A stretch of DNA of 55,746 nt, the filler included, from Jimgerdemannia flammicorona (Eukaryota), in assembly GCA_003990765.1 (NCBI GenBank). It is 2 parts of 2 records of this genome, joined end to end, with 100 filler letters (N's around TTAATTAATTAA, not from the genome) between each part and the next. Parts side by side here need not be neighbours in the genome. Positions count along the whole stretch, not along the records: positions 1 to 27,832 come from RBNJ01000596.1; 1 more part is not named here. The stretch is one strand, 5' to 3'. Under the pieces are notes generated by a model. The model did no database searches. It was not told the origin of the DNA and worked only from the letters and a program-made list of their open reading frames with translations. Made by a program: the position numbers and the translations under genes. Below, one piece after another: positions 272-48,217 of this stretch. Position 1 is the stretch's first letter, and each line of letters begins with the position of its first letter.

Positions 272-2566
272 TTAGAAACCCAAAGAAGAGTGAGAACCTC
301 ATCCAATCCAAGAGTACTAGGCTCATAAGCCACAGCTTGAAGGAGGGCAGAAAGGCCATCAAGGTAGAGTGACTTAGAAATAAGTACAAAACCCTGATTC
401 TTATCAGTGACTATGAGTAAATGAAAAGGCAATTGCTTGACTGATTTAAGCATGGTATACATAGCATGGTCCAAAACCAAGTAAGAGCAAGCATATCCAG
501 AAATGGACAGTAAGTAAGCCATGTCAAGAAATATGCAGTATGAAGAGATATTGGGAGAGAGAACCCAATTGCTAGGAATATAATAGCAAGAGGGCATCTT
601 ATCACAATCCTCAAAGAAGATGGCAAGGTCAAGAGCATGACAGAAGTATGAGAGATGAGCTGGATCAGTAAAGGAGAATTGTGAGGAAGTCATAGAAAAA
701 ACAAAGTGAGGACCCAAGGATAAGGCAAAGACTTAAAGGGGAGAAAGAGAGCAGTCAGCCAAAGAAAAAGAAGAAGACAAAAGTGTTTCAAGAGAATAAT
801 AAACCTGAAAATTTGGGACAAGTAACTGAGAAAGACAAAGGAGAGACAATATAAGGAACTACTTAGGGTACACTAGAAGTGATGATAGAATCTAAGAAGA
901 GATGGAGATGCCAGGAGAGAACTACACCAGGGAGAAGTTTAAGAGTGAGAGGCCTTCCCCTTCTCTCTGACTTTTTTTGAAGGTAGCAAGCTCAATGAGT
1001 AGGAGTACACTCCATCAGAGTGCCAGACCTTGCAGCCACAGGCTTTTGTGTAACCCTTATATTCAGGAGTATGGATAGAGGAGGTGAAAGAAGAGCTGGC
1101 AGAGGAGGTAGAGAGAGAGCAAGCAGCTAAAGAGACAGCAGCATAAGAGATACCACTATGGGGGCAGACAGACTTAGCTAGGTACCAGTAGATATGGTGG
1201 AGGCAACTAGAGCAGACAGTACAGGGCCAAGCTCCAACAGAGTGAGAACCAAGTTAGCAGCTACACTTGGAAGTATAGGGAATGGAGAAGGAGGTCTTGG
1301 TGGGAGAGGGGGACTGAGAAGAGACCAATAAAGCCTGGTTGGGCTTGGCAGGAATCTTGGTGGGAGCTTTGGCAGTAGTAGTAGTAAAGGAACAAACCTC
1401 AGCATAGGCAGTGGCATGAGTCTTGGCATGGATAGCCTTAGAGACTGAAACCTCAGAGCAGGCAGGCAGAGGAGCAGTGGTGGTGATATGAGCAGTGGTA
1501 GCAGCATATGCCATTTTCTGCTCATAACAAATAAGGTGCTAGTGAGGAGAAAGCGATGAATAGTATTGATGTCAGCAGTGGCAGAGGATATATCTTGGAT
1601 GGCAAAGCCATAAAAAGGGGTAGCATCTACAAGATAAGAGGAGGTAAAGACCATGAAAGTGGTACTGATATGATAGAAGGAGGTAGGAGTAGCAATAGTA
1701 GAGGCAGTGGCAGCATCAGTAGTAGTAAGCTTAGTGGCAGCAGTGGCAATGTGAACCTCTTTGGAGAGGGCTTGGCAGTGGGCCTTAGAGAGAATGAAGT
1801 AGCAGATAGTAGACAGAGTAATGACATCAACATTACAGTAGAGGTGAGTCTCCTTGGCAGAGAGAGTAAGGACTGACTGGAACTGAGAGAGGAGCAGATA
1901 ATCAGAAGGGTGAAGGTCTAAAGGGAGGAAAAGGATAGCAGATGAGATGTAAGTCATGAATGAGACAGTGGCAGAAACAAAAGTAGGGGGAGGGAGAAGA
2001 GGAAGAACCTTATCTATAATCTCATCAACAGAGACAGAGGCTCTGAGAGCAGGTGGTACAGTAGTGGAGAAGGAAGGCCCAGTGGAAGCCATGGGAGCAA
2101 ACTCAGAGCCAGTGTCAAAATGAACAAAAGATATATAGAAGAGCATGTATAAGGAGAATGAACAAAGAACATAACCAAAAATGCATCAGTCATTTATTGT
2201 TATATAAAAACATAATCCTTATATATAAAATACAATGTTCCAAAAGAGAGAATATACCACAACTCAGGGCAAACTGAATTAGAAACCATATGATCACTGG
2301 AGATAAGTAGAGGTAAAGAGGGAGTCAATTCTAGTTGCAAGATAAAAATTACAAACAAACACAAATAAAACAAATCCAAATCAAGATTAAAAAACATCTG
2401 TAGACTCCAGAGGGGTGAGCATGAGTGAGGGGTGAGGCTGAAATGGAGTAAGCCACAGCAAGCCTGAGTGAAGTGAGGGGCTGAAGGCAGTGGAGGGGAG
2501 CAGAGTAAGGCTGAGACTCCAGAGTAAGTGTGAGATCCCAGAGGGGGCAAGAATGTTTTTTAATCC
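272..2566 (-). mobile_element. Penelope-like retroelement (PLE), partial tandem copy (5' region, ORF1, start of RT), degenerate
   Basis: Diverged direct copy of 3913-6188. Translates to LLIVTDKNQGFVLISKSLYLDGLSALL, matching the PLE RT 'ADKN.G...' motif. Confidence 0.75.
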
Positions 2567-2639: not shown

Positions 2640-4500
2640 AAGAAAGATATGAATGAGCAATCAGAGAGTATCAGAAAAGAGACAAAAGTCCATGGTGTGA
2701 AAGAGAAGAGCACAGGATAGTATCAGGACATTGTGCAATCCAATGAGTATGATTGAATGATATGTATGATAAGAATCAGGGGTGGGAATGAAGAGAGGGT
2801 ACAGAGAGGGTAAGGGGGGAGAGAGAGAAGAGAAGGAGGATAAAGGGGAGAGAGGAGGGAAGAGCAAACAACAGACCATTCAATAGAAGCAAGTAGATTA
2901 CAAATAATAGAAATAGGGTAGACATAATGATAGACCATGAAGTTGCCAAGAACCTGAACAGCAGACATCCAGTCAGAATGATGGGAGCAGTATAATATAA
3001 GATAATGAACCTCACCATAAATATATTTGAGAAGAGTGCATTGAGAATGATTGGAACAAAAGTCAGAGAACTTTTGAGAATGGGGAAAACAAGAATAAAC
3101 AATAGTTCAGAAGAGAGAAAGAGAAATGGAAAGGTCTAAAAAGAGAATACTGGTCATACTGTATACCTAAGTAATGGAATGATCAGGAGGATAAATACCA
3201 TGAAATATACTAGAAATATCAATATCAGTAATAGCAAGGACAATGAAGTTATCAATATATTAGTAAAATAAGATATCCCCAGCCCAGAATGCAATGGAAA
3301 GAGGTGAAGAAGAATTATGTATCATATGAAGTTCATAAGCCAGACCAATAAGGTTGATAAGAGTAGGGGTATAATTCATTCCCATAGCAATATCAGAAGT
3401 CTGGTGGAAGGAGCCAAGGGTCAACTCAAAATAGTTGGAGCCACAGATGAGGAGTATAAGCTCAACAATAGAAGCCAATGAGACTGAGGAGTCCAAAGAG
3501 AAGACAATGGAACCCAAGAAGTGAAGACAATCATCAATCTCATCAAAATGAATAGCAGTATAGAAGGAAGAGAAATTACCAGAGACCAAATGGAAAAAAT
3601 ATTGAACAGATACAATGGTGGAGCAGAGAAGGGTGAGCTCCTGAGTATTATGAAGAATTATATACTCAGACCCAAAACAGAGTTGTAAAAGAGCTATCCA
3701 AGAGAGAAAGAAGTAGGATAACTATTTTGAAATCTTGGTGGTAGGAGAGTTAAAAGTAGCTATAATGGGATATCAAGCCAAAGTAGGCTTATGAACTTTA
3801 GAAAGAGTATAGAAAACCAGAAGACAAATGTCTGGCAAGGACAAAGAGTCCTGGAAGAAGTTAAAAATGAGGTTTACAAAAGGAGAATTCAAAAGCAATC
3901 TAGTATGAGCCAGAGAAACCTGAAGAAGAGTGAGAACCTTATTCAATTCAAGAGCATTAGGCTTATAAGCCATAGCTTGAAGGAGGGCAGAAAGGCCATC
4001 AAAGTAGAGCAACTTAGGAATAAGTGCAAAACTCCAATTCTTATTAGTAACTATGAGCAAATGCAAAGGCAATTTCTTGACCAATTTAAGTATAGTATAT
4101 ACAGTATGGTCTGAAACCAAGCAAGAGCAGTGCATCCAGGAATAGATAGTGAGCAAGTTATATTAAGGAATATACAGTATAAAGAGACATTGAGAGGGGT
4201 GACCCAATTACTAGGAACATAATAGTGAGAGAGCATCTCACTACAATCCTCAAAGAAGATGGCAAGGTCAAGAGTATAATAGAAGTATGAGAGACAAGCC
4301 AGATTAGTAAAGGAGAATTGTGAGGGAGTCATAGGAAAAACAAAGCAAGGATCTAAGAATAAGGTAAAGACTTGAAAGAGAGAAAGAGAGCAGTTAGCTA
4401 AAGAAAAAGGAGGAGATAAAAGTGTTCCAAGAGAAGAATAAACCCGAAAATTCAGGATAAGTAACTGGAAAATATGAAGAGGGGATAGCATGAGGAACTA
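2640..4500 (-). pseudogene. PLE reverse transcriptase with stops and frameshifts; no GIY-YIG domain recognised
   Basis: ORF-track fragments 4051-4491, 3773-4156, 3260-3589 and 2723-2968 carry consecutive PLE RT motifs. Confidence 0.75.
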
Positions 4501-4599
4501 CTCAGAGCACACCAGAAGCAATGACAGAATCCAAGAAGAGACAGAGACACTGGGAGAGAACCATACCAAAGAGAAGTTTAATAGTGGGAGGCCTTCCCC

Positions 4600-5717
4600 T
4601 TCTCTCTGACTTTTTTTGAAGGTGGTGAGCCTGATGAGTAGGAGAACACCCCATCAGAGTACTAGACCTTACAGTCACAGGCTTTTGTATAACCCTTATA
4701 TTCAGAGGCATAGATAGAGGAGATAGAGGAGGAGCTGGCAGAGGAGACAGAAGGAGAGTGAGTAGCTGAAGGGACAGCAGTATGAGGGACACCACCATGG
4801 GGGCAGACAGACTTAGCTGGGTGCCAGTAGATATGGTGGAGGTGACCAGAGCAGACAGCACAGGGCCAAGCCCTGATGGGATGAGAACCAAGTTGGCAGC
4901 CATGCTTGAGAGTAGGGGGAATGGAAGAGGAGGTCTTGGTAGGAGAGAGGGACTGAGATGAGGTTGACAAAGTCTGGTTAGACTTGGTAGTAGTGGTAGT
5001 GAAGGAATAAACTTTGGTATAGGTGATAGCACAAGCCTTAGCATAAATGGCCTTGGAGACCAAAACCTCAGAAGAGGCAGACAGGGGAGCAGTGGCAGCA
5101 GTATGAGCAGTAGCAGCAGTATGTAATATTTCCTACTCATGAAAATGAGCAATAAACAAGGTACTAGCAAGGAGGAAATAATGAATAGTATCAATGTCAG
5201 TAGTGGCAGAGGGTACATCTTGGATGGCAAAACCATAAAAAGGAGCAGTATTCATAAGACAAGAGGAGGTAAAGGCCACAAAAGTGATACAGATATAGTG
5301 GAAGAAGGCAGAAGTGGTAGTAGCAGAGACAGCAGCAGCATCAGCAGCAGCAAGCTTGGCAGTGGTAGTAGCAGTGCAAATCTCTTCAGAGAGGGCTTAG
5401 TAGCAGGCCTCAGGGAGAATGGAGTAGTGGACAGCAGATAGAGCAATAACATCAATGTCATGGCAGAGGTGAGCCTCCTTAGTGAAGAGAGCAAGGACTG
5501 ACCAGAACTGAGAGAAGAGCAGATGACCAGAAGGATAAAGGTCCAAAGAGAGGGAAAGGATAGTGGACAAGACATAAGTCTTGAATGAGACAATGGCAGG
5601 GATGAAAGTGAGGGGAGGGAGAGGAGGGAGAACCTCATTCATAATCTTGTTAATAGAGATAGAGGCTCTGAGAGCAGATGGTATAGCAGTAGAGGAGGAA
5701 GGCCCAGTGAGAGCCAT
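4600..5717 (-). pseudogene. PLE ORF1-like, Ser/Thr/Pro-rich, with Cys/His cluster CAVCSGHLHHIYWHPAKSVCPHG
   Basis: Fragments 5397-5867 and 4662-5063; homologous fragments at 1178-2146 and 1254-1514 in the second copy. Confidence 0.55.
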
Positions 5718-6175
5718 AGAAGTGAACTCAGAGCCAGTGTCAAAATGAACAGAAGATATATGAAAGAGTATGTATAAGGGAACAAATAAAGAATATAACT
5801 GAAAATGCATCAGCTGTTTATTGCTATGTAAAAACATAGTCCTTATATACAAAATATGATATCCCAAAAGAGAGAATGTGCCACAACTTGGGGTGAACTG
5901 AATTAGGAACTACATGACTATCAGAGATAAGCAGAGATAAAGAGGAAACCAATCCCAGTTGCAGGATAAAATCACAAACAAATACAAACAAAACAAATTC
6001 AAATCAAGATTAAAAAATATCTGCAGACTCCAGAGGGGTGAGTATGAGCAAGGGATGAGGCCAAAATGGAGTGAGCTGCAGTAAGTCTGAGCAAAGCAAG
6101 AAGCTAAAGGCAATAGAGGGGAGCAGAGTAAGACTGAGACCCCAGAGTAAGTATGAGATCCTAGAGGGGATAAGG

Positions 6176-6516
6176 ATGTTTTTTAATCTTAATTTGGATT
6201 TGTTTTATTTGTATTTGTTTGTGATTTTTATCCTGTAACTGGAATTGGCTCTCTCTTTATCTCTGCTTATCTCTAACAGTCATGTAGTTCTAATTTAGTT
6301 CACTCTGAGTTGTGGTATATCCTCTCTTTTGGGACATTGTATTTTATATATAAGGACTACATTTTTATGTGGCAATAAATGGCTGATGCATTTTCAGTTA
6401 TATTCTTTATTCATCTCCCTTATACATACTCTTTTATATGTCTTCTATTTATTTTAACACTGGCTCTGGGTTTGCTCCCATGGCTTCTGCTGGGCCTTCC
6501 TCCTCTACTACCATCT
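6176..6516 (+). repeat. Inverted duplication of the PLE 5' segment (~5685-6021), inverted pseudo-LTR-like
   Basis: tttaatcttaatttggatttgttttatttgtatttgtttgtgattttt is a near-exact reverse complement of 5965-6016 and continues to gggccttcctcctctactaccatct. Confidence 0.85.
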
Positions 6517-8092: not shown

Positions 8093-8382
8093 CTTCTTCA
8101 CTACCTTACTAATCACAATGGTTTGGTAGACAATCTTCTGAGTCTACTTTCCACAATTATTACCCTCTCTACCTCAGGTTGATTTACTATACCTATTGTA
8201 GGGCAGTGAAAGAGAGGCAATAGTGATGAGTTTCCTCTTTATCAGTGTCAGATTAGTATCTTTTCTACTTTTTCATGGTTTTTAGTACCTTTGGCTGTAT
8301 CTGGAGTACATCTGTTTTAGTATAGTGCTTTCTTCCTTTTACCATCACTAACAAGGTGCTGTCTTGATATATCTCAGACTAT
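8093..8382 (+). mobile_element. Non-autonomous retroposon copy 2, 5' part (split by Gypsy-1)
   Basis: Matches 24255-24545; continues at 17178; TSD aatatttattgtgt (8079-8092) / aacatttattgtat (18119-18132). Confidence 0.85.
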
Positions 8383-8607
8383 TGTCATGTAGTGGTCGCT
8401 GAGTCCTTCAAATATGCCAGATTCTCTTCAAGGTGTATCTCTTAGACTAACTCAAGTTGTTATAAGCAAGTTCTTATTGGAGTGCCTTCCCAAGGTCTTA
8501 TAGTCCTCAAACTTCTTATCTTTAACTGTCTTGTTATCTCTTAGATTGCTTGCAAGGGATTGTATATTGCACTGAGAGGAACTGACTTTATTTCAGAGGA
8601 AATAAGA

Positions 8608-8620
8608 GGGGTATTTATAC
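8608..8620 (-). promoter_or_regulatory. Candidate LTR TATA box (gtataaatacccc)
   Basis: Lies downstream of ~34-bp tandem repeats (8690-8825) in element sense; a similar motif gtacaaatacccc is at 35278 in the solo LTR. Confidence 0.5.
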
Positions 8621-8827
8621 AAAATATAATTCAATGGTTGCTAAGATATAAAGCTAAATATAAATTCCAATAACTAAACCTACTGAGTTCCAGGGCTGGC
8701 ATTATTTAGTATCACATCAAAATGCCAGTGCTGGAACAATTTCGCGTCACCTCAGAATACCAATGCTGGCATTATCCAGTGTTACATGAGAATACTGGTG
8801 CTGGCATTATCCAGTGTAACAAAGAAT

Positions 8828-9685
8828 TTAGAGCAAAAAGTTCAGGATCATGGGGGCTTCATCATCATCATCATCATCATTACTGAAGGAGATGAGATCC
8901 GCGAATTCGTCATGTAGGTCACGCATTTCGCATACATTGTATGCCTCATTGTGTGGTTCACGTGCTTCAGGTATGTCACACGGGGTGACGTCATCGATGA
9001 CATCATCACGTTCGGCTGTGGCAGAGAAATCGGGAACAAGATCTGGAGCTCTCCAGTTTATGAGGTTCTCTTCCACAAAATAAGGAACAAATGTGGGGTC
9101 TTGGGGAGATCTAACCCGGATGCTTGGGCCTTGGAATACTGAGATCAATCCTTACAGGAATTGGTCTGGGTTGTCCTGAAGGATAGGGTACCAGAAGTCT
9201 TCTACTTCTTCGCTGTTGAGGGTGATGGTGGACTGGGCTTCTGTAGCTACTCTGGCTTCTAGTGCATTGATATGGCGGGATGACAGGTCTCTGAAATCTG
9301 AGACTCTAACATACTCCAAGTTGGGGATCGACCATGGTGCATGCCTGAAGATCTGATGGATCTTCTTTGCTGTCCTTGCCTTACATAGGTCCATGGGAGT
9401 AGCATCTTGTAGCTCTTGAGGGCTGGCGTGTGGGAACTCCTGGCAGAGGAGGTTTCCTATTTCATATTCCTGCCACATTTGGAGGCATTCGGTGGCAATG
9501 GTGATCCTTGTTTCCATTTCGTGGCAGTAGAGAATAAAGTAATAGGGGTCTGCAGTACCCAGGCTGATGCTAGGAGTCCTTCTTGAGCGGGTCCTCATGG
9601 CTCTTCTGATGTCTTGGAACATCCTTTCCTCGACCGAGATACCTTGATGATTCCTTGACCTTGAGGTTTGGTGGGCAGCAGGCAT
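8828..9685 (-). pseudogene. LTR(U3)-encoded accessory ORF, ~285 aa, one internal stop
   Basis: ORFs 9152-9685 and 8828-9148 are in frame across one TAA. The 5' LTR copy reads QFLQELISVF at that site. Confidence 0.8.
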
Positions 9686-9928
9686 TTTGTTTGTGGTAAG
9701 TCTTTGAGCTATTTTTGGGATTAGTGGTTCTTGTTAGTTACTGCTACTGCAGTTCCTTGATCCTTCTTTTATATTCTTCAGGATGCTTGTGCTGTGGTCA
9801 CAATGACTCACAGTTGGTCATCATTGCTCATCTCATATGCCGTATAATCTTCTTGTACTCCGATCTGGTGGCTTGTAAAGAAAGGCTATCTCCTGTGCTG
9901 ATGTCATCATTCTGGGGTCACCATTACA

Positions 9929-9939
9929 TCTTCCTCCTG
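9929..9939 (-). other. Polypurine tract
   Basis: caggaggaaga immediately before the TGTAATGG start of the 3' LTR. Confidence 0.75.
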
Positions 9940-10289
9940 AATAAGGATCTTCCTGAGCATCCTTATTCATTGGTCCAGTTCTGAAAAATTTGCTGATCCC
10001 ATAACCTCTGGCAAGGGGTCAAAAACTAGTGTTTATGGGCTGGTATCTTCCCTTTGTATTTTGGCATGATGGTGAAGGGTCGCTCTCTTCATATAGAGCA
10101 AGGGCCTGATTCTGATCTTGACCAATCAGTTGATGGTTCGAACTCCTCTGACTGCGAAAGTCTTTACAGATGAGTAGTTGCCAGTGCCATATCCCTTAGA
10201 GAATGGTCCAGACAGATAGCCTGCTGGTCACGGGACATGCTGTTATGATTCGCGGACTAGAACCTTGTGGGCAGTCATCACATTTTGCT

Positions 10290-11490
10290 TCTCTTATATA
10301 GGTTCATGGTACTTCTTGAGTCTGTTCCTATGCACCGTGGTAGGCAGTATGGTCCCTGAGATTTTTCTAAGCCAGAAGGTAGTTCCCTTGATATCTTGCA
10401 TGTAGAAGGGTCCTTCCCATTTAGGCTCCAGTTTTCATGACCATGAGGCTTCTACCATATTTCGATACAGTAGAACCTTTTCTCTAATTCGGATGGGTTC
10501 TAGGGCCTTGTGATTCTTTTCTGCATTCTTCCTTATCAGTGCTTGTGACTTGGTGATGTAATCTTCAGCCTTCTTCCTGATTTGGTGTAGTCTCTGGATT
10601 TCTGCATCAACCCATCTCTAAGTTAGGTCTAGATTTGTGGCTGAGGTTCCATTAGAATATTCTTCTCCAAAGAGCAGCTCTCTTGGGGTAAAATGTATAC
10701 TCTGTGATTGTATGTCTCATAGAATGGAGAGGGCAGTTGAGAGATAGTTATCCCAATTCTCATATGTCTCTGAGATCTTTGCTAGGATGTTCTTGAGGGT
10801 CTTATTGGTTCTCTCTGTCTGTCTATTTCCTTGAGGGTGGTATGCAGTGGTCTTGATGTACTGGATCTTGTATTTCTGGTACATTGTCTCATGGAATCCA
10901 TTAACAAATTCTGTACTGTGGTCTGTTGTAATTTACTTTGGTGTCTTGTAGCGGCAGATGATTTCTTGGTGTAGAAAATTGACTATAGAGAGGGCATTGG
11001 CTTCTTGTAATGCTCCTGCCTCTATCCATTTGGTAAAGAGGTCTACAATAACTATAATATAGTGGTTTTCTGATAGTGTTACTGGTAGTGGTCCAATGAT
11101 ATCCATTGCAATGTAGTGGAAGGGGATAGGTTCGATTCTTGATAATCCGGGTGCCTGGTCTTGCTGATCTTGTTTCTGTTTTTGGCACTTGTCACACCCT
11201 TTGACAAATTGGCGCAGGTCTTCTTCCATCTTGGGCCACTACATGGTTCTTCTTGCCTTATCATATGTGTTGGTTCCTCCTAAGTGTCCTTGCTCATGTA
11301 CTTCCTTCATTACTTGATACTTCTTGTATTCAGGTATTACTAGCTTTCCTCCTTTTCTGAGTGTAGTGTTGTCTAATTCAAACTGTTTCCAAGTCCGGTT
11401 GATGATGGTGATTGTCCAGGGTTCAAGGTGGTTGGGCATCTTCTGCTGCCCAAGGTAGCTGATTAATCCATAGTATAGCTCCTTATTCAT
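10290..11490 (-). pseudogene. Gypsy-1 integrase in a separate frame starting MNKELYYGLISYL
   Basis: HEQGHLGG...CDKCQK zinc motif, DIIGPLP...VDLFTKW core, C-terminal KLEPKWEGPFY...TVHRNRLK. Confidence 0.9.
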
Positions 11491-14400
11491 GTTGAATAGT
11501 CTTAATGGGGATATTTCGAAGTGTCCTTGAGAGTGCATCGGCATTGGTATTGGTCTTTCCTGGGCAGTGCTTGACAGTACAGTCATATTCTTGCAACCTG
11601 TAGATCCATCTGGCATATATTCCTTTGGGGTTCAGAGTGTGGAATAGCCAGGCAAGAGTGGAATGGTCTGTCTGAATGGTGAAGTATTTTCCAGCTAGGT
11701 AGTAGTGGAACTTGTCTACTGCCCAAACTACTGCAAAGCATTCAAGCTTGCATGACTCGTAGTTCTGTTCTGCTCCACGAGTACCTCAGCTTGCATAGGA
11801 GATGACATATTTATGTCTATCTTTCTTCTGAGCTAGGACCGCTCCAAGTCCTATAGCACTCGCATCTGTCTGCAGGATGAATTCTAGGTTCCAGTCTGGT
11901 CTTTTGAGGATGGGTGCTTGGGTCAATCTGGTCTTAAGTTCATTGAAGGTTTCTTGGCACTCCTTGGTCCATTCGAATTTGGTCTCCTTCTTCAGTAGCT
12001 CATAGATAGGTGCTGCAATGTTGGAGTATTCTCTGATAAATTTTCTGTAGTAGCTGGCCAGTCCAAGGAAGGCGTAGACTTCTGTGGTTGTTCTGGGTCT
12101 TGGGTAGGCTGCAACAGCCTTGACCTTCATAGGGTCTGTGTGGATTCCGGTCTGGTTGATGAGGTGTCCTAGGTAGGCGATTTCTTGAGCTGCAAACTTG
12201 CATTTCTTGGGCTTGATGTAGAGGCCATGCTCCTTGAGCCTCATGAGGGCTAGCTGTATGTGATTGATATATTCCCATGTAGTGTTGCTGAAGATGATCA
12301 CATCATCAACATAGACAAAGAGCCATTTTCCAATCTTGTTGCTGAAGACTCTGTTCATCATTCACTGGAAACTTGCTGGGGCATTGCACATTCCAAATGG
12401 CATTTGCAGATAGATATAGGTGGCATCAGGTATGATGAAGGCTGATTTCTCACTGGCATCTTGAGTGAGACCGATCCGGTGGAAGCCTGAGAACAGATCC
12501 AAGGTAGTGTAGTATTTGGCTTTGCTTCCAAGGGTGGTAAGGATTTCTTAAATATTTGGCAAGGGCTGCCTATCCTTCTTGGTGATGGTATTGAGTTTCC
12601 TGTAGTCAATGAAGAGTCTTGGTGCAAACTCTCCAGGCTTGCTTCCTTTCTTCAGGGCAAGGACAATGGGTGAGGCCCAGGGGCTGATAGCTTGCTTGAT
12701 GATTCCAGCTTCTTCCATTTCCTTGAGTTCGGCTTGCAGCCACTCTCTGTAGACAGGTGGTATGGGTCTGGCTTTCTGATAGATAGGCTTGGCATCACCA
12801 GTGTCAACTTCGTAGTGGTACTTGGGTTCTTGATTGTGGATATCCCTAAAGTCTGTAGCAAGTACTCCTTCATTCTGGTGCAGGATCTTGAGAAGTTGTT
12901 CCTCCAGGGGAAATTTTTCTCCAATGGTATATGTGTGCTTGTTCTGGTCCTTGTCTTTCTTGTGCTCAAGTTCAGTAATCTTAGTGGTGGTATAGGCTCC
13001 TCTTCCAGTAGATCCAAAGCCTTATTCTCCTCTCTTGGTCTTGATAAGTTCAGTGGCCTCTATGATTCTGGGCTTCTTGATTTCATGGATCAGCATCTGG
13101 CCAATCCTGTCATGCTTCTTGACTTCGAAGGGGGTGGTGTGGTTGTGATTTCTGACTATGAGAAAAATCTCACCAGTGTAATCAGGGTCAATTACTCCTC
13201 CTTCAACTGAGATTTCGCTTTTGGCCAGACTGCTCCTGGTCTTGATAATTCTGGCATGGTTTTCTGGCAACTTGACTCCAATTCCAGTGCCAAGTAGGGT
13301 GGTGGTCTGTGGTTCGAGGGTAGCATCTTGGATGCTGGCAAGATCCATTCCTATGGCTCCTTCAGTCTTGTATTCTGGGATCTTGGCTTCAGGGTAAAAC
13401 TTCTTGATCTTGAGAGTGATGTCTGGTTCTTGTTCCTCCTCATCATCACTGTCAGCTTGAAGCTCTGGGGGCTGGTCATCTTCTTCAGCTTTCCTTTTTG
13501 CTTCGGCAGCTTCTTGCTCATATTTTTGTTGGCGGATTTTCCTGACTTCACTGATACAGGACCAGCAGTCATTCAGGTGTTTGGAGCAGTACATTCTAGT
13601 ACCATGGGGGCATCTTCCTTGAGGGGCATACCTATCAATGATCTTGTTATACCACTGCTCATCTATGAGCTTGGGTATCTTGTTCTTGTTCTTGTTCACC
13701 GAGTGCATGAAGACCTCTGTGTCTTCTTCATCTCCTTCCTCCATGTCTGGCAGGACTCCTTTGTGGACATTGATAGAAACTCGTACCTTTCTCCCTCTGT
13801 AGTTGATCTGCATCTTCTGGGCATTGAGGTCAATGATAGCCTTGGCCTTGTAAAGCCATTGGTTGCCAATGAGAATGTCATAGTTGGTGGTACTTATAAC
13901 AATTATGTCTACTGGGATAGTAGCTCCTCCTATCTTGATGGGGACTTCTTGGATTTTGCCAAGGGGGGTAGCTTGTGTACCATCTGCTGTGACATAGACC
14001 ATCTTAGTGGACTCTTCAATGTCCCAACCTAGGCGGTCAATTGCCTTCTTACTCATGAGGCATCCTCCAGCACCAGTATCAATGATAGCATCAAAGATAC
14101 AGTCTTCGATCTGGCAGGGGGTATAGGCTGATGTCTTGCGCTAGTCTTCGGATTCTTTACCTGAGTTCTCAGATTCTTCTTGTGCATTGTGAGCTTCTAC
14201 AATCTTGTACTCTTGATTCTTGACAGTAGTTGCAAGTCCTACTCTCAACTGCTGTCTGAAGGCAGGGACTTCAGCTAGCTGCCCAAAAGTGGCATTGACC
14301 TTCTGTTCCTTGAGGTCCTTGTAGATGTCATACTGGTGGATCTTAGTCTTGCACAGCTTCTGTTCCTTCTTGCTCTCACTTTCTTCTGAGACTGGAGTAG

Positions 14401-15511
14401 TGCCTTCGATAATTTGGTGAGCAGCTTCGTCTAACTCCATGTCTTGATCAATCTCCTTGTATTGGGTCTTGCTTTGAATAGTGACAGCTGGAGTCTTTTT
14501 TGGTCTTCCAACTGGCTTACTGTTGCTCTTCTTGTCATAGGGCTTGGACCAGGTTCTGGTACCTTCAGTAGCAGGGTAGAATTCGAGCTCCTTGTAGTAT
14601 TCTTCATCATCAGTGTCACCAATCTCCTCGATGACTACTGCATTAGTTTGTTCTCTAGTTCTGCTAGCATTGCTTGGTTGGGCTTTATGTCTTATTTCGG
14701 TCATGCAATTCTTTGCATAGTGGCCTTCTTCTCCACATCTGAAGCATGTGATGTTATTTCATTCTTCTGTAGCAGCTGCAAATCTCTGCACTGGTCTCCT
14801 GTTGGCACTTCAGACTTCTCTAACAACATCACCAAGGTGTGCAGTTATCTCGGCAAACTGCTTGGCAAGTTCTTCCACTGGGTCAGCTTTGGCTGTCTTG
14901 GGGGTAGGTGGGGTTGGTTGTCTGTTTACAACTGTGGCAGGTAAGATACTAGTTGGCTTTGATGGCTCCATCTTGATGCTAGTTATTTTCTCCATTGAGT
15001 GTTCAGCAGAGTGTCTGGCTATCCAATATCTCTGTGCAAAGACCACTTTCTGATCAAGGGTCAGTGCAGCTGGGGTAGACCAGATTGCTAGGGCAATTTC
15101 AGGGTGAACTCCTTTGAGAAAGATTGAATCTGCTATTTGTTCCTTGAGGCAATCATCATAGCCAGCCAAGACAATCTGGTGGCAGATTCGGGTATAGAAT
15201 GAGTTGGGATCTTCACTAAGTCCCTGGCAGATAGTTTTGAGTTGATCCTTGAGAGCTTGCTTGATCTTTTTGGTATAATATGTTGTTCTGAGGAAGGCCT
15301 TTATGTTGGCAAGTTTGGCTGCACCAGCATCAGCAATGGTGGCTACATTGAACTTATCTCTAGCAGGTCCTCTGAGACTGACTGGTAGAAGGGCCAATTG
15401 AGCATCCACACCAAGGGCTCGTATGACGGCAAATTGTTCAAAGTCTTCAATAAAGGTCAGAATTGACTCTTCAGTAGTATATCTATAGAATATAGGGGGA
15501 CACATTTCCAT
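11483..15511 (-). pseudogene. Gypsy-1 gag-PR-dUTPase-RT-RNase H polyprotein, mostly one frame, with stops
   Basis: Gag at 14810-15511; CFRCGEEGHYAKNC knuckle ~14705-14750; IIDTGAG protease ~14075; YVDD ~12305; FILQTDASAIGLGAVL; ends NADALSR...QHE*. Confidence 0.92.
13000..13415 (-). pseudogene. dut: dUTPase domain between protease and RT
   Basis: Motifs AIGMDL, TRSSLA, GVIDPDYTGEI, DRIGQM, RGE*GFGSTG. Confidence 0.92.
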
Positions 15512-15610
15512 CTTGTCTTGAATTCTTGCAGGGGGTGACTCTTGTAGTCAGGGTAGTTGTTGTGGGGTTGTTTGTTTTTCAGCTTGAAAGTGAGAGATTT
15601 GTCTTGAATC

Positions 15611-15628
15611 ACCAGCCAATGGGCACCA
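15611..15628 (-). other. Primer binding site TGGTGCCCATTGGCTGGT
   Basis: TGG start 3 nt after the 5' LTR end; tRNA identity not assigned. Confidence 0.75.
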
Positions 15629-15631
15629 AGT

Positions 15632-17177
15632 TGTCACATAGTGGTCGCTGAGTTCTTCAAATATGCCAGATTCTCTTCAAGGTGTATCTCTTAGACTAAC
15701 TCAAGTTGTTATAAGCAAGTTCTTATTGGAGTGCCTTCCCAAGGTCTTATAGTCCTCAAACTTCTTATCTTTAACTGTCTTGTTATCTCTTAGATTGCTT
15801 GCAAGAGATTGTGTATTGCACTGAGAGGAACTGACTTTATTTCAGAGGAAATAAGAGGGATATTTATACAAAATATAATTCAATGATTGCTAAGATATAA
15901 AGCTAAATATAAATTCCAATAACTAAAACTACTGAGTTCCAGGGCTGGCATTATTTAGTATCACATCAAAATGCTAGTGCTGGAACAATTTCATGTCACC
16001 TCAGAATACTGGTGCTGGCATTATCCAGTGTTACATGAGAATACCGGTGCTGGCATTATCTAGTGTAACAAAGAACTTAGAGCAGAAAGTTCAGGATCAT
16101 GGGGGCTTCATCATCATCATCATCATCATCACTGAAGGAGATGAGATCCATGAATTCATTATGTAGGTCGCGCGTTTCGCATACTTCGCATGCCTTGTCA
16201 CGCGGTTCATGTGCTTCGGGTATGTCATGCGGGATGACATCATCGATGACGTCATCACGTTCGGCTGTGGCAGGGAAATCAGGAATAAGGTCTGGAGCTC
16301 TTCAGTCTATGAGATTCTCTTCTACAAAATAAGGAACAAATGTGGGGTCTTGGGGAGATCTAACCCAGATGCTTGGGCCTTAGAATACTGAGATCAATTC
16401 TTGTAGGAATTGGTCTGGGTTATCCTGAAGGATAGGGTGCCAGAAGTTTTCTACTTTTTTGCTGTTGAGAGTGATGGTGGACTGGGCTTCTGTGGCTACC
16501 CTGGCTTCTAGTACATTGATACAGCGGGATGACAGGTCTCTGAAATCTGAGACTCTAACATACTCCAAGTTGGGGATCGACCATGGTGCATGCCTGAAGA
16601 TATGATGGATCTTCTTTGCTGTCCTTGCCTTATGTAGGTCTATGGGAGTGGCATCTTGTAGCTCTTGAGGGCTGGCATGTGGGAACTCCCAGCAGAGGAG
16701 GTTTCCTATTTCGTATTCCTGCCACATTTGGAGGCATTTGGTGGCAATGGTGATCCTTGTTTCCATTTCACAGTGGTAGAGAATGAAGTGATAGGGGTCT
16801 GCAGTACCCAGGCTGATGCTAGGAGTCCTTCTTGAGTGGGTCCTCATGGCTCTTCTGATGTCTTGGAACATCCTTTCCTTGACCGAGATACCTTAATGAT
16901 TCCTTGACCTTGAGGTTTGGCAGGTAGCAGGCATTTTGTTTGTGGTAAGTCTTTGAGCTATTTTTGGGATTGGTGGTTCTTGTTGGTTGCTGCTACTGCA
17001 GTTCCTTGATCCTTTTTTTATATTCTTCAGGATGCTTGTGCTATGGTCACAATGACTCACAGTTGGTCATCATTGCTCATCTCATATGCCATATAATCTT
17101 CTTGTACTCCGATCTGGTGGCTTGTAAAGAAAGGCTGTCTCCTGTACTGATGTCATCATTCTGGGGTCACCATTACA
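15632..17177 (-). repeat. Gypsy-1 5' LTR, containing the second copy of the U3 ORF (~16077-16934)
   Basis: Direct repeat of 8383-9928. Confidence 0.95.
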
Positions 17178-18046
17178 TTATATAGAGAGTTGGCTGATCT
17201 TGGGCATCAAGTACTCAGTGTAGGTTACCTACAGGTCCTCAGTACCTGTGGTGGGGCCCTCTGGCTTTGGCGAGCTTTCTAGTGAGTGCAGTTCTAGTGT
17301 AGATAACTGCTTTTTGGATATTGTTGGGATGGAAGAGAAGATGGCCATTATAGATAGAAGGAAGGATGATAATGGTGAACCAGTAGGGTACTAGGCTGGG
17401 GGCAGTTGTTAGGGCTGGGGCAAATGCTGCTTCAGTGGGGCCTTTTTATTAATACAGAGTAGTTAAGTGATAGGTGTTACTCTCAACTTCTTTTAGTAAT
17501 TCAGCAGATTGGGCCCCAATCATTAAGGAGAGTCAGGGGGCCCAAGACTACCCATTTCAAGCATCTTGGCTATACTCAACTAGAACTGAGAGCTAATACA
17601 ATAATATAATCAAGGCCTGCAGACTTAAGTAGTGAAATATTAGAGATCTCCTCCCACCTCATGTGTAAGTCTTTTACTCATCTCATCTAGGAGAACCAGG
17701 TCTTATCCACTATAATGTACTTTGATGAGGGTTTTTTCTTTGCCTGTCATTCTTTTTGGTTATTCTATTTGGCTCAGACATAGCCTTATATATATATACA
17801 TTGGAGTCTTGGGCATATACTTTCAGTCATTAGCATATGGCTGAGTTCTCCCTAATGATAGAGAAAGCATAGTATGCAGAATGAGGTACAGGCCAACATA
17901 GGCCCTACTGTATCTGGTATAGTTGAGCTACTAAACAATAACTAGCCTAGGTTAATAAGGGGGCAATGCTTAATGGGTGGTGGAAAAAGGTTTTGGCCTA
18001 TATAGTCTAGGTTTCCTTTCAATAAAAATTCGCAAGACATTGAATC

Positions 18047-19074: not shown

Positions 19075-20393
19075 CACTATCTCTTTCTCTGCTATCTTAC
19101 TGGTTACAAGGTTTGGTAGGCAACCTTCTGAGTCCCCTTTCCCCTATTATTACCCCCTCTATCTCAAATTGGTTTACTATACCTTTATGAGCATAGTGAG
19201 AGGAGGGTAATGGTGATGAGTTGCCCCTTTATTGGTATCAGATCAATGCTTTCTCTACTTTTTCATAGATTCTGGTACCTTTGGCTATATCTGGGATATA
19301 CCCGTTTTGGTGTGGCACTTTTTTTCTTTTGCCATCACCAATAAGGAGTTATCTTGGTATATTACAGGTTACATAGAGAGTCAGCTGACCTTGGGTATCA
19401 AGTGCCTAGTGTAGGTTACTTGCAGGTCCTTGGTATCTATAGTGGGGCTCTCTGGCTTTGGCAAGCTTCCTGGTGAGTGCGGTTCTGGTGTAGGTGACTG
19501 TTTTTTGGGTATTATCAGGATGAGAAGGGAGATGGCTATCACAGATAGGAGGAAGGGTAATAATGGTGAACCAGTGGGGTGCTAGACTAGGGGTGGTCAT
19601 CAAGGCTGAGACAGATAATATTTCAGTGGGACCTTTCGATTGGCTGGTAAGGAGTGGGGTGGTGCAGGGGCTGGTATCCTGGCTGTATCCAACTAGAACC
19701 GAGAGCTGATGTAGCAATGTAATCGAGGCCTACAGACTTAGAGAGTGGGGCCTTCCTCATTTGGCAGTATCTGACTGGAACTGAGAGCTAACACAATAAT
19801 GTGATCAAGGCCCACAGGGTCAAGTCCTTCGGGACTGCTGATACTTGAAAAAATTGGAAAAATACAGAGAAGATTAGCATGGCCCCTGCACAAGGATGAT
19901 ACTATCTTCAAGGTCCACAGGCTCAAAGAGTGAGAGTGGGATCTTTTCTAGCCCTAGCCCATGTGTTAGTCCTTTGAGGAAAATTCTACATGTAAGTCTT
20001 TTACTCACCCACTTTGAATCTGCTTTGCTCTCTGTTAGTTAGTTGGAGAATTTTTTCTTTGCCTCAGACTTTCTTTTAGAATTTAGGAGACTATTCTTTA
20101 TTCAATCCTGATGCTGCTAGATTCAATACATAAGTATACTCTCACATATAAACAATGATCCAGCCCTAATGAACAGACAAATCTAATCTATATTATGGGG
20201 GTCAACATAACCAGTGTTTAACAGACATAATTGGAACAGTGGAACTGCTGGACAATTTAATAACTTAAATTAATAAGGGGATATTGTTTGGTGGATAGTA
20301 GAGAAGGGTTTTGGCCTATATAGTCTAGGTTCCCTTCCAATAAAAATCCGCGGAACTATGAATCCGTTTAAAAAAAAAAAAAAAAAAAAAAAA
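19075..20393 (+). mobile_element. Non-autonomous retroposon copy 3, variant with internal U6 fragment
   Basis: Shares 5' and 3' ends with the other copies; 18-bp TSD agagatagatgttaaaat (19057-19074) / agagatggatgttaaaat (20394-20411); poly(A) tail. Confidence 0.88.
19824..19902 (+). ncRNA. U6: U6 snRNA fragment (approx. nt 1-80, 3'-truncated; probable pseudogene)
   Basis: 5' hairpin GTCC-TTCG-GGAC, then aaaattggaaaaATACAGAGAAGATTAGCATGGCCCCTGCACAAGGATGA (ACAGAGA box, AGC triad, ISL). Confidence 0.92.
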
Positions 20394-24247: not shown

Positions 24248-25440
24248 CAGCCCCTTTCTCTGCTACCTTACCGGTCACAAGGTTTGGTAGGCGACCTTCC
24301 GAGTCCCCTTTCCCCTAATATTACCCCCTCTACCTCGAGTTGGTTTGCTGTGCCTGTAGGGGCATGGTGGGAGGAGGGCAATGGTGATGAGTTGCCCCTT
24401 TATCAGTGTCGGATCGGTGCTTCCTCTACTTTTTTGCGGATTCTGGTGCCTTTAACTGCGTCTGGGGTGTACCCATTTTGGTGCGGCGCCTTCTTCCTTT
24501 TGCCGTCACCAACAAGGAGTTGTCTCGGTGTGTCTCAGGCTACGTAGGGAGTTGGCCGACCTTGGGCGTCAAGTGCTCAGTGTAGGTTACCTGCAGGTCC
24601 TCGGTGCCTGTGGTGGGGCCCTCTGGCTTTGGCGAGCTTTCCGGCGAGCGCGGTTCTGGCGTAAGTGACTGCTTTTCAGGTGTTGTCGGGATGGGAGGGG
24701 AGATGGCCATCACAGATAGGCGGAAGGGCAATTACGGTGAACCAGTAGGGTGCCAGGCTGGGGGCGGTTGTCGGGGCTGGGGCAGGTGCTGCTTCGGTGG
24801 GGCCTTTTGATTGGTGCGGCGCGGTTAGGTGGTAGGTGTCACTCTCGGCTTCTTTTGGCGGGTAGCGGGGTGAGGCCCCAGTTGTCAGGGGGGGTCGGGG
24901 GGCCCGAGGCTACCCATTTCAGGCATCTTGGCTGCACTCAACTGGAACCGGGAGCTGACATGGCAACATGATTGAGGCCCGCAGGCTTGAGTAGTGGGGT
25001 ATTGGGGGTTTCCTCCCGCCTCACATGTAAGTCCTTTACTCACCTCGACTGGGAGAACCAGGCCCTACCCACTGTGTTGTGCTTTGATGAGGGTTTTTTA
25101 TTTGCCTGTCATTCTCTTTGGGGTGGCAGGGGCTATTCTATTCGGCTCAGGCGTGACCTTGTATATACGATGGGTTCTCAGGCGTGCGCTTTCGGTCGTT
25201 GGCACATGGTTGGGTTTCCCCTGGTGGTAGGAAGAGCATGGTGTGCAGAATGAGGTGCGGGCTTATCAGCCCTGCTGCATCTGGCATGGTCGAGCTGCTG
25301 GACAATGGCTAGCCTAGGTTAATGGGAGGGCAGTGCTTGGTGGGTGGTGGGGGAGGGTTTTGGCCTATATAGTCTAGGTTCCCTTCTAATAAAAATCTGT
25401 GGAACATGAGTCTGTTAAAAAAAAAAAAAAAAAAAAAAAA
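24248..25440 (+). mobile_element. Non-autonomous retroposon copy 4, youngest and CpG-rich
   Basis: Perfect 17-bp TSD atatataggggtattct (24231-24247 / 25445-25461); aataaa near 25388; poly(A). Confidence 0.9.
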
Positions 25441-25565
25441 ATATATATATAGGGGTATTCTTATATATATTCTTCAGCAACAACACCTTTCACTGGTAAC
25501 TTTCAGGTGACACAAGATTTGGACAACACTTTCCGCGAAGTTTTTGGTGAAAAGCTACTATCAAC

Positions 25566-27832: not shown

Positions 27833-27932
27833 NNNNNNNNNNNNNNNNNNNNNNNNNNNNNNNNNNNNNNNNNNNNTTAATTAATTAANNNNNNNNNNNN
27901 NNNNNNNNNNNNNNNNNNNNNNNNNNNNNNNN
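27833..27932. other. Artificial contig-join spacer
   Basis: N-run with central TTAATTAATTAA, which gives stops in all six frames. Confidence 0.9.
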
Positions 27933-27940
27933 AAAAAAAA

Positions 27941-28401
27941 AAGAAGAACTCATCACTAGTATAATTCTCAGTGAGTTTATTCAGGAGGAATCAATGCCAC
28001 TCTCTATTTCCAGTAAACCTGTACCCACATTAAGGTATCCAGAAATCACATACTTTTGGAGATTGTCATGCTACACAGTGATCATATGTCACTTAAGAAG
28101 AAAACTGCTAAATTACCAGAGATCATTGCACTACATTGAAATTATCCACTACCCAAGAAGGCGACCACTTGCACCACATATCCATAAATCACTGCTACAC
28201 CCAGAGAACTATCCCAATATGGAAATTGACACATAAATCACTCACAGATATCCAGCTTTGACTATTTTACCACTGAACATCAATAAGGACACCAGAATCT
28301 TAGAAAATTTTATTGCTTTTAACAAAGTAACTGGGAGCTTAAGCCAAACTACATCAACCCCCAACCTTGTAATTTGCCTCCATTGAGCCAGGCATGTTAC
28401 A
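27941..28401 (+). repeat. Gypsy-2 5' LTR (3' part only)
   Basis: Homologous to 42245-42349 joined to 47828-48217; ends in CA before the PBS. Confidence 0.85.
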
Positions 28402-47827: not shown

Positions 47828-48217
47828 TGCATACTTTTGGAGATCATTATGCTAAAAAGAGATCACCTATCACCTAAGAAGGAAACCACTAAATTGCCAG
47901 ATCATTACTCAAGAAGAAAACCACTAAATTGCCAGACATTATCACACTTTACAGAAATTATCCACCACCTAAGAAGGAGACCACTCATCCCATATACCTA
48001 CAAATCACTGCTATATCCAGAGAACTACCCCAATAAAGAAATCAATACACAAATTACTTACAGATATCCTACTTTAACTATTATACTACTGAATATCAAT
48101 AAGGACACCAGAATCTTAGAACATTTTGTTGCTTTTAACAAAGTAACTAGGGGCTTAAGCCAAACTACATTAACCCCCAACCATGTAATTTGCCTCCATT
48201 GAACCAGACACATTATA
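47828..48217 (+). repeat. Gypsy-2 3' LTR, right part
   Basis: Matches 28048-28401. Confidence 0.85.

What the first reader, a model, noticed from the sequence alone, without database searches (positions are those of the whole stretch)
8828..9685. A ~285-aa gene encoded entirely inside the U3 of a Gypsy LTR
Seen: both 1.55 kb LTRs of Gypsy-1 carry the same long sense ORF, with stops at different positions (QFL*GL in the 3' LTR; QFLQELISVF* in the 5' LTR), so the ancestral ORF was open. It lies upstream of the tandem repeats and TATA-like motif, i.e. in U3. Established: U3-encoded genes are known in retroviruses (MMTV sag; HIV nef overlaps U3) but are unusual in Ty3/Gypsy elements. Inference: an accessory factor, for example anti-silencing or trans-activating, that every LTR and solo LTR would carry. 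I do not recognise the domain.
Basis: partly seen in the sequence, partly recalled or inferred. Interest (0 to 1): 0.8.

Follow-up and report, generated by a model that had tools for sequence, protein, structure and literature searches.

The report
Protein gene inside a retrotransposon LTR
Both long terminal repeats of a decayed Ty3/Gypsy retrotransposon carry a roughly 285-codon gene for a previously undescribed acidic protein that has conserved relatives elsewhere, a gene position otherwise known mainly from a few complex retroviruses.

Summary
A minus-strand Ty3/Gypsy element (8383-17177) has two 1546-bp LTRs, 93.8% identical, with 93 of 96 differences being transitions. Each LTR carries the same 285-codon sense frame (9685->8828 and 16934->16077). 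It is broken by 1 stop in the 3' LTR and by 3 in the 5' LTR, and every stop is a sense codon in the sister LTR.

The frame is longer than chance gives (0 of 2000 shuffles). It belongs to a small orphan protein family of about 15 public proteins, 27-90% identical, with a conserved start and intact frames. Differences from related copies are 13 synonymous to 8 non-synonymous against 30% synonymous expected (p=0.002). The two LTRs compared with each other look neutral (32% synonymous). Listed length changes inside the frame are multiples of three.

No Pfam, PDB or fold match was found. The protein has a short basic N-terminus, a helical core and a long acidic disordered tail, with no membrane segment.

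The gene lies upstream of four 35-bp repeats, a TATA box and AATAAA, so a U3 position is likely. It has its own TATA 88 nt upstream. No RNA data were available, so the U3 position, expression and function remain inferred. I rate it a new variant of the known kind 'accessory ORF of an LTR retroelement'.

The parts
8383..9928 (-). 3' LTR (1546 bp, TG...CA)
   Evidence: blastn pair; ends read; contigs of runs X1 and X3 join the LTR end to the internal start (joint 15630->8382)
15632..17177 (-). 5' LTR (1546 bp)
8828..9685 (-). LTR-borne ORF, 3' LTR copy: 285 codons plus TAA; one premature TAA at codon 178 (9152-9154)
16077..16934 (-). LTR-borne ORF, 5' LTR copy: premature stops at codons 14, 185 and 211
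9767..9773 (-). TATAAAA at LTR nt 156, 88 nt upstream of the ORF ATG (also 17016-17022 in the 5' LTR). No ATG lies between nt 108 and the ORF ATG at nt 244. Candidate promoter of an LTR-only mRNA (inferred)
8681..8820 (-). four ~35-bp tandem repeats directly after the ORF stop (5' LTR: 15930-16069); candidate enhancer (inferred)
   Evidence: read; TRF finds 8754-8821, period 35, 1.9 copies; length varies in run X10 (joint 8678->8763)
8613..8619 (-). TATAAAT at LTR nt 1310 (5' LTR: 15862-15868); candidate promoter of the genomic RNA, which would mark the end of U3 (inferred)
8587..8592 (-). AATAAA at LTR nt 1337 (5' LTR: 15836-15841); the only AATAAA or ATTAAA in the LTR
15616..15628 (-). primer-binding-site-like TGGTGCCCATTGG, 3 nt after the 5' LTR
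   Evidence: 9 contigs of run X1 carry the same letters beyond the LTR end (loose end at 8382)
9929..9938 (-). polypurine tract directly before the 3' LTR
9939..15615 (-). internal region: gag with CCHC knuckle, protease, dUTPase, RT, RNase H, integrase; several stops and one frame change
8379..8382 (.). target-site duplication CTAT (partner TTAT at 17178-17181); the element sits inside another repeat whose uninterrupted copies lie near 19362-19369 and 24542-24545

Best explanation
The frame is a real protein-coding accessory gene that a Ty3/Gypsy family carries wholly inside its LTR. This copy is dead, decayed by C->T/G->A transitions that hit CpG hardest. The gene was intact at insertion and is kept open in related lineages.

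The product is about 285 aa. It has a short basic N-terminus, a helical core without a recognisable fold (about residues 18-185), and an acidic, disordered C-terminal third with short conserved hydrophobic motifs. It has no membrane segment and no enzyme signature.

Inferred, not shown:
(a) The gene lies in U3, because the TATA box (nt 1310) and the only AATAAA (nt 1337) that fit a genomic promoter and terminator lie downstream of it.
(b) It is expressed as a ~1.2-kb LTR-only mRNA from the TATAAAA at nt 156, ending at the LTR's own poly(A) signal. Every LTR would then be a complete transcription unit.
(c) The protein acts through protein-protein contacts as a regulator or adaptor for the element. 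It could be an acidic activator working on the 35-bp repeats and promoter just downstream, or a factor that counters host silencing.

My odds: coding gene under constraint about 0.85; U3 position about 0.6; own promoter about 0.35; activator or anti-silencing role about 0.2.
For: Anatomy:
- Canonical element with TG...CA LTRs, PBS-like site, PPT, TSD and gag-PR-dUTPase-RT-RH-INT.

Open at insertion:
- All 4 stops are sense codons in the sister LTR.

Not chance:
- 0 of 2000 shuffles reach 301 codons with at most one stop.

Protein family:
- 5 proteins among 316 candidates.
- 5 of 1.84 billion representatives with the profile.
- 12 among 4667 candidates with the wider profile.
- Three sublineages, 27-90% identical to the window protein. 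The MPxxR start is conserved in 6 members, with shared blocks and an acidic tail of variable length.

Selection:
- Of the 21 variant sites that read laying listed inside the frame, 14 are at codon position 3, 5 at position 1 and 2 at position 2 (chi-square p=0.004).
- 13 are synonymous and 8 are not, against 0.30 synonymous expected (binomial p=0.002).
- Internal control: the two LTRs compared with each other give 23 synonymous of 71 (32%), as expected for neutral decay after insertion.

Length changes:
- Inside the frame they are -84, -87, (-2 and -1 together) and +3.
- The 8 listed single-base indels all lie outside the frame and outside gag-pol. One lies 27 nt upstream of the ATG.

Composition:
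- GC by codon position is 0.55/0.39/0.52, like the element's own PR-dUTPase (0.51/0.36/0.52).

Signals:
- TATAAAA at nt 156, no ATG between nt 108 and the ORF ATG, A at -3 of the ATG.
- TATAAAT at nt 1310 and AATAAA at nt 1337, conserved in both LTRs.

Protein features:
- pI 4.5-4.9 and net charge -21 to -28 in four members.
- No hydrophobic 19-mer above 1.07.
- Domain model pLDDT 70.3; the tail is below 50.
Against: - No transcript evidence at all. No listed run is on record as RNA, so the transcription start, poly(A) site, splicing and translation are unknown.
- The selection test uses only the 21 ORF rows among 40 shown; 746 further rows were not shown. Most of those 21 rows come from two contigs of one run (X10).
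- 13 indel rows were not shown.
- I could not see the DNA around any homologue, so I cannot say that other family members also sit in LTRs.
- The homologues are gene-caller predictions on short contigs (567-4848 bp). That choice favours intact frames.
- The protein is acidic throughout, which argues against direct DNA binding.
- The fold matches to helix-turn-helix proteins are at noise level (Z 3.5-4.6).
- In run X10 the LTR is covered 400-fold or more above the internal region, including U5 and flanking DNA. The model above does not explain this.
Confidence: 0.5

Rival explanations
1. The gene is real but does not lie in U3. The TATAAAA at LTR nt 156 is the promoter of the genomic RNA, so the frame lies in a very long R region (about nt 190-1360). 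It would be the first cistron of the full-length RNA, like the leader ORFs of some plant Gypsy elements.
For: TATAAAA at nt 156, an ATG-free stretch up to the ORF ATG, and a good start context. Nothing measured excludes it.
Against: - A 285-codon upstream frame would hinder gag translation.
- The only AATAAA (nt 1337) would then sit 1.15 kb from the cap in the 5' LTR and should end most transcripts before gag.
- A second TATA at nt 1310, 27 nt before AATAAA and 236 nt from the LTR end, has the usual U3/R/U5 geometry.
Confidence: 0.2
2. It is a passenger. A host gene, or a gene of another mobile element, was captured into the LTR and copied along, without any role in the element's life cycle.
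For: - Orphan protein without a TE domain.
- The LTR without the frame would be about 690 bp.
- CpG observed/expected in the frame (0.36-0.44) is higher than in the rest of the LTR (0.20) or the internal region (0.17).
- In run X10 the LTR-like sequence is abundant while this element's internal region is nearly absent.
Against: - Three diverged sublineages keep the full frame and the same start.
- No longer or fused form among 7999 scored candidates.
- All sources are jgi or ena records on short contigs, none a named gene.
- Excess of synonymous change and in-frame indels between lineages.
- Codon-position composition like the element's own genes.
- Capture at the origin and a present role do not exclude each other.
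Confidence: 0.12
3. It is not a gene. It is a chance open frame in non-coding LTR sequence.
For: Both copies in the window are interrupted. The two copies differ as neutral DNA does (32% synonymous).
Against: 0 of 2000 shuffles reach the length. Homologues down to 27% identity share motifs. Third-position bias and in-frame length changes are present.
Confidence: 0.02

Closest known systems
MMTV sag (superantigen gene in the U3 of a betaretrovirus LTR)
   Same: A sense frame of about 300 codons lying inside the LTR, upstream of the LTR promoter, so carried by both LTRs. In my phrase searches for an 'LTR ORF', most of the papers listed concerned MMTV (listings only; the biology is recalled).
   Different: Sag is a type II membrane glycoprotein of a vertebrate virus (recalled). 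This protein has no hydrophobic segment and no sequence or fold match to anything. It also starts inside the LTR with a TATA box of its own.
Additional ORFs (aORFs) of plant and fungal Ty3/Gypsy elements (Ogre, Grande, RIRE2, Retand, Boty)
   Same: Lineage-restricted orphan proteins of unknown function, conserved in the copies of a family and without host homologues (PMC7264820, part 1 of 3 read).
   Different: Those are described in the internal region, upstream of gag or between pol and the 3' LTR, in sense or antisense (PMC7264820; PMC6431247 passages). This one lies wholly inside the LTR.
Foamy virus tas/bel genes and their internal promoter
   Same: Works-like comparison only (recalled): regulatory genes at the 3' end that reach into U3, are driven by a separate promoter, and make a protein of about 300 aa with an acidic C-terminal activation domain that switches on the LTR.
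   Different: Tas binds DNA. This protein is acidic over its whole length. There was no match in BFVD at E <= 0.001. The host is not a vertebrate retrovirus setting.
VANC anti-silencing proteins of VANDAL DNA transposons
   Same: Concept only (recalled): an element-encoded factor that relieves DNA-methylation silencing of its own family. The LTRs here show heavy CpG decay (47 of 94 CpG cytosines changed).
   Different: Different transposon class. No similarity was tested or seen.
ORFs captured by bdelloid rotifer LTR retrotransposons
   Same: LTR retrotransposons that have picked up extra frames (PMC5408684; title and start of abstract seen in the listing).
   Different: What those ORFs encode and where they lie I know only from recall (enzyme domains, in the internal region). 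This protein has no known domain and lies in the LTR.

Membership tests
Ty3/Gypsy (Metaviridae) LTR retrotransposon | Paired LTRs ending TG...CA with a target-site duplication | tested here: met
   1546-bp LTRs, 93.8% identical. TSD is CTAT/TTAT, differing by one transition. Uninterrupted paralogous sites exist in the window.
Ty3/Gypsy (Metaviridae) LTR retrotransposon | Domain order gag - PR - RT - RNase H - INT (integrase after RT) | tested here: met
   Pfam hits: zf-CCHC, aspartyl protease, dUTPase, RVT_1, RT_RNaseH, Integrase_H2C2 and rve, in that order on the minus strand.
Ty3/Gypsy (Metaviridae) LTR retrotransposon | PBS after the 5' LTR and polypurine tract before the 3' LTR | tested here: met
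   A TGG-initiated 13-mer lies 3 nt after the LTR. A 10-nt purine run abuts the 3' LTR. The matching tRNA was not identified.
U3-encoded retroviral accessory gene (MMTV sag type) | The frame lies in U3, upstream of the start of the genomic RNA | not testable with these tools
   Only motifs are available: TATAAAT at nt 1310 and AATAAA at nt 1337, downstream of the frame. No RNA run was listed.
U3-encoded retroviral accessory gene (MMTV sag type) | Membrane-anchored glycoprotein (feature recalled) | tested here: not met
   Highest 19-residue hydropathy is 0.62-1.07 in four members. The protein is acidic and largely disordered at the C-terminus.
env-like ORF of LTR retrotransposons | Sense frame between pol and the 3' LTR encoding a protein with transmembrane segments | tested here: not met
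   The frame starts 244 nt inside the LTR. No hydrophobic segment was found.
aORFs of plant and fungal Ty3/Gypsy elements | Located in the internal region between the LTRs | tested here: not met
   The whole frame, 9685-8828, lies inside LTR 9928-8383 and is repeated in the other LTR. Definition from PMC7264820.
aORFs of plant and fungal Ty3/Gypsy elements | Conserved among copies and related families, without host homologues | tested here: met
   About 15 homologues in three sublineages, none with a family name. No longer form was found.
Acidic transcriptional activator (Tas/VP16-like), works-like only | Acidic C-terminal region with hydrophobic motifs, plus nuclear targeting or DNA or co-factor binding | tested here: inconclusive
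   The acidic tail and a predicted short amphipathic helix (residues 257-265) are present, and the N-terminus is basic. No DNA-binding fold appears above noise (Z <= 5.3).

The most novel reading that the evidence does not exclude
Each LTR of this family, solo LTRs included, is a self-contained gene with its own TATA box, a 285-codon frame and the LTR's poly(A) signal. It makes a trans-acting acidic factor that switches on the neighbouring 35-bp-repeat enhancer and genomic promoter, or that counters CpG-methylation silencing of the family. That would be a regulatory gene of the complex-retrovirus type in a simple Ty3/Gypsy retrotransposon, and a way for dead elements and solo LTRs to keep supplying the factor in trans.
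Probability: 0.2. Interest if true: 0.85.

Novelty: new variant of a known kind. Interest (0 to 1): 0.6.

Why it matters
Accessory genes of LTR retrotransposons are rare, mostly of unknown function, and in the reviews I read they are described only between the LTRs. A conserved gene placed inside the LTR has two consequences. It is duplicated at every insertion, and it survives as a possible stand-alone unit when recombination leaves a solo LTR.

If it is expressed from its own promoter, LTR copies across the genome would form a dispersed multigene family that serves the element in trans. The case would also give a concrete, testable candidate for how such elements regulate themselves or resist methylation-based silencing.

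For annotation, it means that long frames in LTRs should not be discarded as noise. It also means LTR-LTR divergence is uneven here: 8.3% inside the CpG-rich frame against 3.6% outside. That distorts insertion dating.

Tried and rejected
- Whole genome of the window: not held. Cluster members and their accessions: switched off. So the DNA context of the homologues could not be seen.
- Metagenome scan with the family profile: 3 loci, each a 58-residue, 40% match. L001 was read and is a bacterial contig in which a 328-codon frame, which I judged heptosyltransferase-like by eye, happens to contain the PILQDNPD pattern. L002 and L003 show the same match and were not read further. I rejected all three as relatives.
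- Viral contigs: none.
- Longer or fused forms: none among 7999 scored candidates.
- Pfam: nothing for the two window proteins or for the 10 aligned members (best E 0.14).
- PDB sequences with the profile: 0 at E <= 10.
- hhalign against the element's gag: probability 0.2.
- ESM Atlas: best score 0.83, no family. Its own model has pLDDT 0.35.
- Fold searches, full model: Foldseek PDB best E 0.47; VIA-align wide best Z 4.0.
- Fold searches, domain model: VIA-align wide best Z 5.3 (9hyu_M, 77 aligned, rmsd 2.8), followed by TetR, AraC and sigma-type helix-turn-helix rows at Z 3.5-4.6, all below the noise level the tool states for helical proteins. BFVD best E 0.64.
- Sequencing runs: no RNA holder listed. 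20 of 24 listed rows hold part of the LTR, with the best share of words 0.36.
- Run X23 (raw DNA reads): laid 0 reads, so it gives no test.
- Run X10 is only guessed to be RNA. It covers U5 and flanking DNA, so I did not use it as expression evidence.
- Other copies in the window: none beyond the two LTRs (tblastn and hmmsearch).
- Literature: six completed searches found no description of a gene inside a Ty3/Gypsy LTR. One fungal hit for 'LTR ORF' meant pol frames (PMC12037069 passages). The Podospora 'crapaud' paper concerns non-coding U3 variation (PMC10787394 passages). Subscription journals and supplements were not searched.
- No complex prediction was run, because the report claims no binding partner.

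Full report
**What is there**

A self-comparison of the region finds one direct repeat pair, 8382-9929 and 15631-17178. It spans 1548 aligned bases at 93.8% identity with no gaps. Trimmed to the TG...CA ends, the LTRs are 8383-9928 and 15632-17177, 1546 bp each. The element is on the minus strand.

- Three bases after the 5' LTR comes a TGG-initiated primer-binding-site-like 13-mer. A 10-nt purine run abuts the 3' LTR.
- The internal 5.7 kb encodes gag with a CCHC knuckle, aspartic protease, dUTPase, reverse transcriptase, RNase H and integrase in Ty3/Gypsy order. It is broken by several stops and one frame change.
- The element interrupts another repeat whose uninterrupted copies lie near 19362-19369 and 24542-24545. 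The flanks give a duplication CTAT/TTAT.
- In independent public data, contigs of runs X1 and X3 join the LTR end to the start of the internal region. Nine X1 contigs carry the PBS letters beyond the LTR end.

So this is a canonical, nested, dead Gypsy insertion.

**The frame**

On the element strand each LTR has the same frame from an ATG at LTR nt 244 to a TAA at nt 1099-1101. The window coordinates are 9685->8828 and 16934->16077, 285 codons.

- The 3' LTR copy has one premature stop (codon 178).
- The 5' LTR copy has three (codons 14, 185, 211).
- Each stop is a sense codon in the sister LTR: three are CAA->TAA and one is TGG->TGA. The frame was therefore open when the element inserted.
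- The 96 LTR-LTR differences are 93 transitions and 3 transversions.
- If the C/G allele is taken as older, 47 of 94 CpG cytosines have changed, against 27 of 234 CpA, 13 of 180 CpC and 6 of 212 CpT. This is methylation-type decay.
- In dinucleotide-preserving shuffles of the LTR, a stop-free run of 193 codons or more occurred in a fraction 0.003 of 2000. A run of 301 codons with at most one stop occurred in 0 of 2000.

**Is it coding?**

Pfam finds nothing, but the protein is not alone.

- A word-indexed search found 5 proteins among 316 candidates, 57-84% identical.
- A profile read against all 1.84 billion cluster representatives found 5.
- A wider profile found 12 among 4667 candidates.
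- Together about 15 proteins fall into three sublineages, with alignment identities to the window protein of 27-90%.
- Six members from all three sublineages start with the same MPxxR motif at the position of the window's ATG.
- They share blocks (W-x-E/D-Y-E-I; H-Q-x-F-R-H-x-P-W; F-x-G-P-x-I) and end in an acidic tail of variable length.
- All are unnamed or 'hypothetical' jgi/ena predictions on contigs of 567-4848 bp.
- No longer or fused form was found among 7999 scored candidates.

Related copies in public runs give a direct test. Of the 40 variant rows shown (746 more were not shown), 21 fall in the frame.

- 14 are at codon position 3, 5 at position 1 and 2 at position 2 (chi-square p=0.004).
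- 13 are synonymous and 8 are not. For the same mix of transitions and transversions, 0.30 synonymous is expected (binomial p=0.002).
- As an internal control, the two LTRs of this dead copy differ at 71 sites in the frame, of which 23 (32%) are synonymous. This is the neutral expectation.

Of 12 indel rows shown (13 more were not shown), the 8 single-base indels all lie outside the frame and outside gag-pol. One lies 27 nt upstream of the ATG. Inside the frame the length changes are -84, -87, a -2/-1 pair and +3.

GC by codon position (0.55/0.39/0.52) resembles the element's own PR-dUTPase (0.51/0.36/0.52).

I conclude that this is a protein-coding gene kept open along element lineages and decaying neutrally after insertion.

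Weak points:
- Most of the 21 rows come from two contigs of one run.
- The tool chose which rows to show.
- The homologues are gene-caller output, which favours intact frames.

**The protein**

- Four members have pI 4.5-4.9 and net charge -21 to -28. The first ~60 residues are basic and the last third is strongly acidic.
- No 19-residue window exceeds hydropathy 1.07, so there is no membrane anchor.
- AlphaFold on the full protein gives pLDDT 55.7, with the tail from residue 217 below 50. The model shows one short helix at residues 257-265.
- On residues 15-215 with 15 sequences it gives pLDDT 70.3 and pTM 0.63. The model is mostly helical with a small beta hairpin.
- No fold search gives a match above noise. 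Foldseek PDB best E is 0.47. VIA-align best Z is 4.0 for the full model and 5.3 for the domain model. BFVD best E is 0.64.
- PDB sequences, Pfam on all members, hhalign against gag and the ESM Atlas are all blank.
- The run of helix-turn-helix proteins at Z 3.5-4.6 is a lead only.

**Where in the LTR, and how it could be expressed (inference)**

Directly after the stop come four ~35-bp repeats, then TATAAAT at nt 1310. The only AATAAA follows 27 nt later at nt 1337, 210 nt before the LTR end. That is the usual enhancer-promoter-R-U5 geometry, so the frame most likely lies in U3.

Upstream, TATAAAA at nt 156 lies 88 nt before the ATG. No other ATG occurs after nt 108, and the start has A at -3. 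Both LTRs keep these signals.

The simplest reading is an LTR-only mRNA of about 1.2 kb that any LTR could make. Alternatives are a spliced subgenomic RNA, or a very long R region. No run on record as RNA holds the sequence, so none of this is shown.

**Function (inference, low confidence)**

The protein is non-enzymatic and non-membrane, with a basic head and an acidic, disordered, motif-bearing tail. That suits a regulator or adaptor that works through protein contacts. It could be an acidic activator acting on the adjacent repeats and promoter, or a factor that counters host silencing. The overall acidity argues against direct DNA binding.

**Comparison with what is known**

- The position is that of MMTV sag, but the protein type is different and there is no similarity.
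- The known additional ORFs of plant and fungal Gypsy elements are orphans of similar standing. A review (PMC7264820, part 1 of 3 read) and passages of PMC6431247 place them between the LTRs.
- Six completed literature searches gave no case of a gene inside a Ty3/Gypsy LTR. The library lacks most subscription journals, and I read no supplements.
- I therefore rate it a new variant of a known kind.

**Unexplained**

- In run X10 (type only guessed) the LTR bins have depth 384-6388. The internal bins have 0-1.2, apart from one at 163, and the best internal contigs reach 2-2.5. The covered part includes U5 and non-PBS flanks. Either that organism has very many LTR-only copies, or the LTR-like sequence there belongs to something else.
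- In X1 and X3 the LTR-to-internal depth ratio is roughly 2-3, as expected for mostly full-length elements.

**Verdict**

Noticed in passing
window 13025-13800 (-): The Gypsy pol carries a dUTPase domain between protease and RT (Pfam E 7e-24). This placement has been described for some fungal Gypsy families (PMC2864245 passages).
   Followed up: partly
window 8383-9928 vs 15632-17177: LTR-LTR divergence is uneven: 71 of 855 sites (8.3%) inside the frame against 25 of 693 (3.6%) outside. 93 of 96 changes are transitions and half of the CpG cytosines are hit. Dating the insertion from whole-LTR identity would mislead.
   Followed up: yes
window 8093-8392, 17183-17482, 19083-19673, 24254-24844: Gypsy-1 is nested in another repeat family with at least two uninterrupted copies in the window, 72-82% identical.
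   Followed up: partly
window 25551-27485 (+): A 644-codon open frame in the only GC-rich (52%), strongly GC-skewed part of the window. The product is rich in G, E and V and has no Pfam match. Two runs of N follow at 27833-27876 and 27889-27932.
   Followed up: partly
window 274-2565 and 3914-6188: A direct repeat of 2.3 kb or more with about 3.63 kb spacing, 77-85% identical. Each copy has long minus-strand frames (1178-2185, 335 codons; 4502-5251, 249 codons) without Pfam matches. It could be another long-LTR or tandem element with an unknown frame.
   Followed up: partly
window 54714-55480: An array of 88 copies of a 9-bp unit (73% matches), overlapped by three minus-strand frames of 262-301 codons.
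   Followed up: no
window 8300-9929 in run X10: A small run of guessed type covers the LTR at depth 384-6388 but the internal region at about 0-2.5. Its copy is about 90% identical, with in-frame -84 and +3/-3 changes in the ORF.
   Followed up: partly
window 28091-28390 and 47907-48206: Another direct repeat pair, 84% identical and 19.8 kb apart. Not examined.
   Followed up: no
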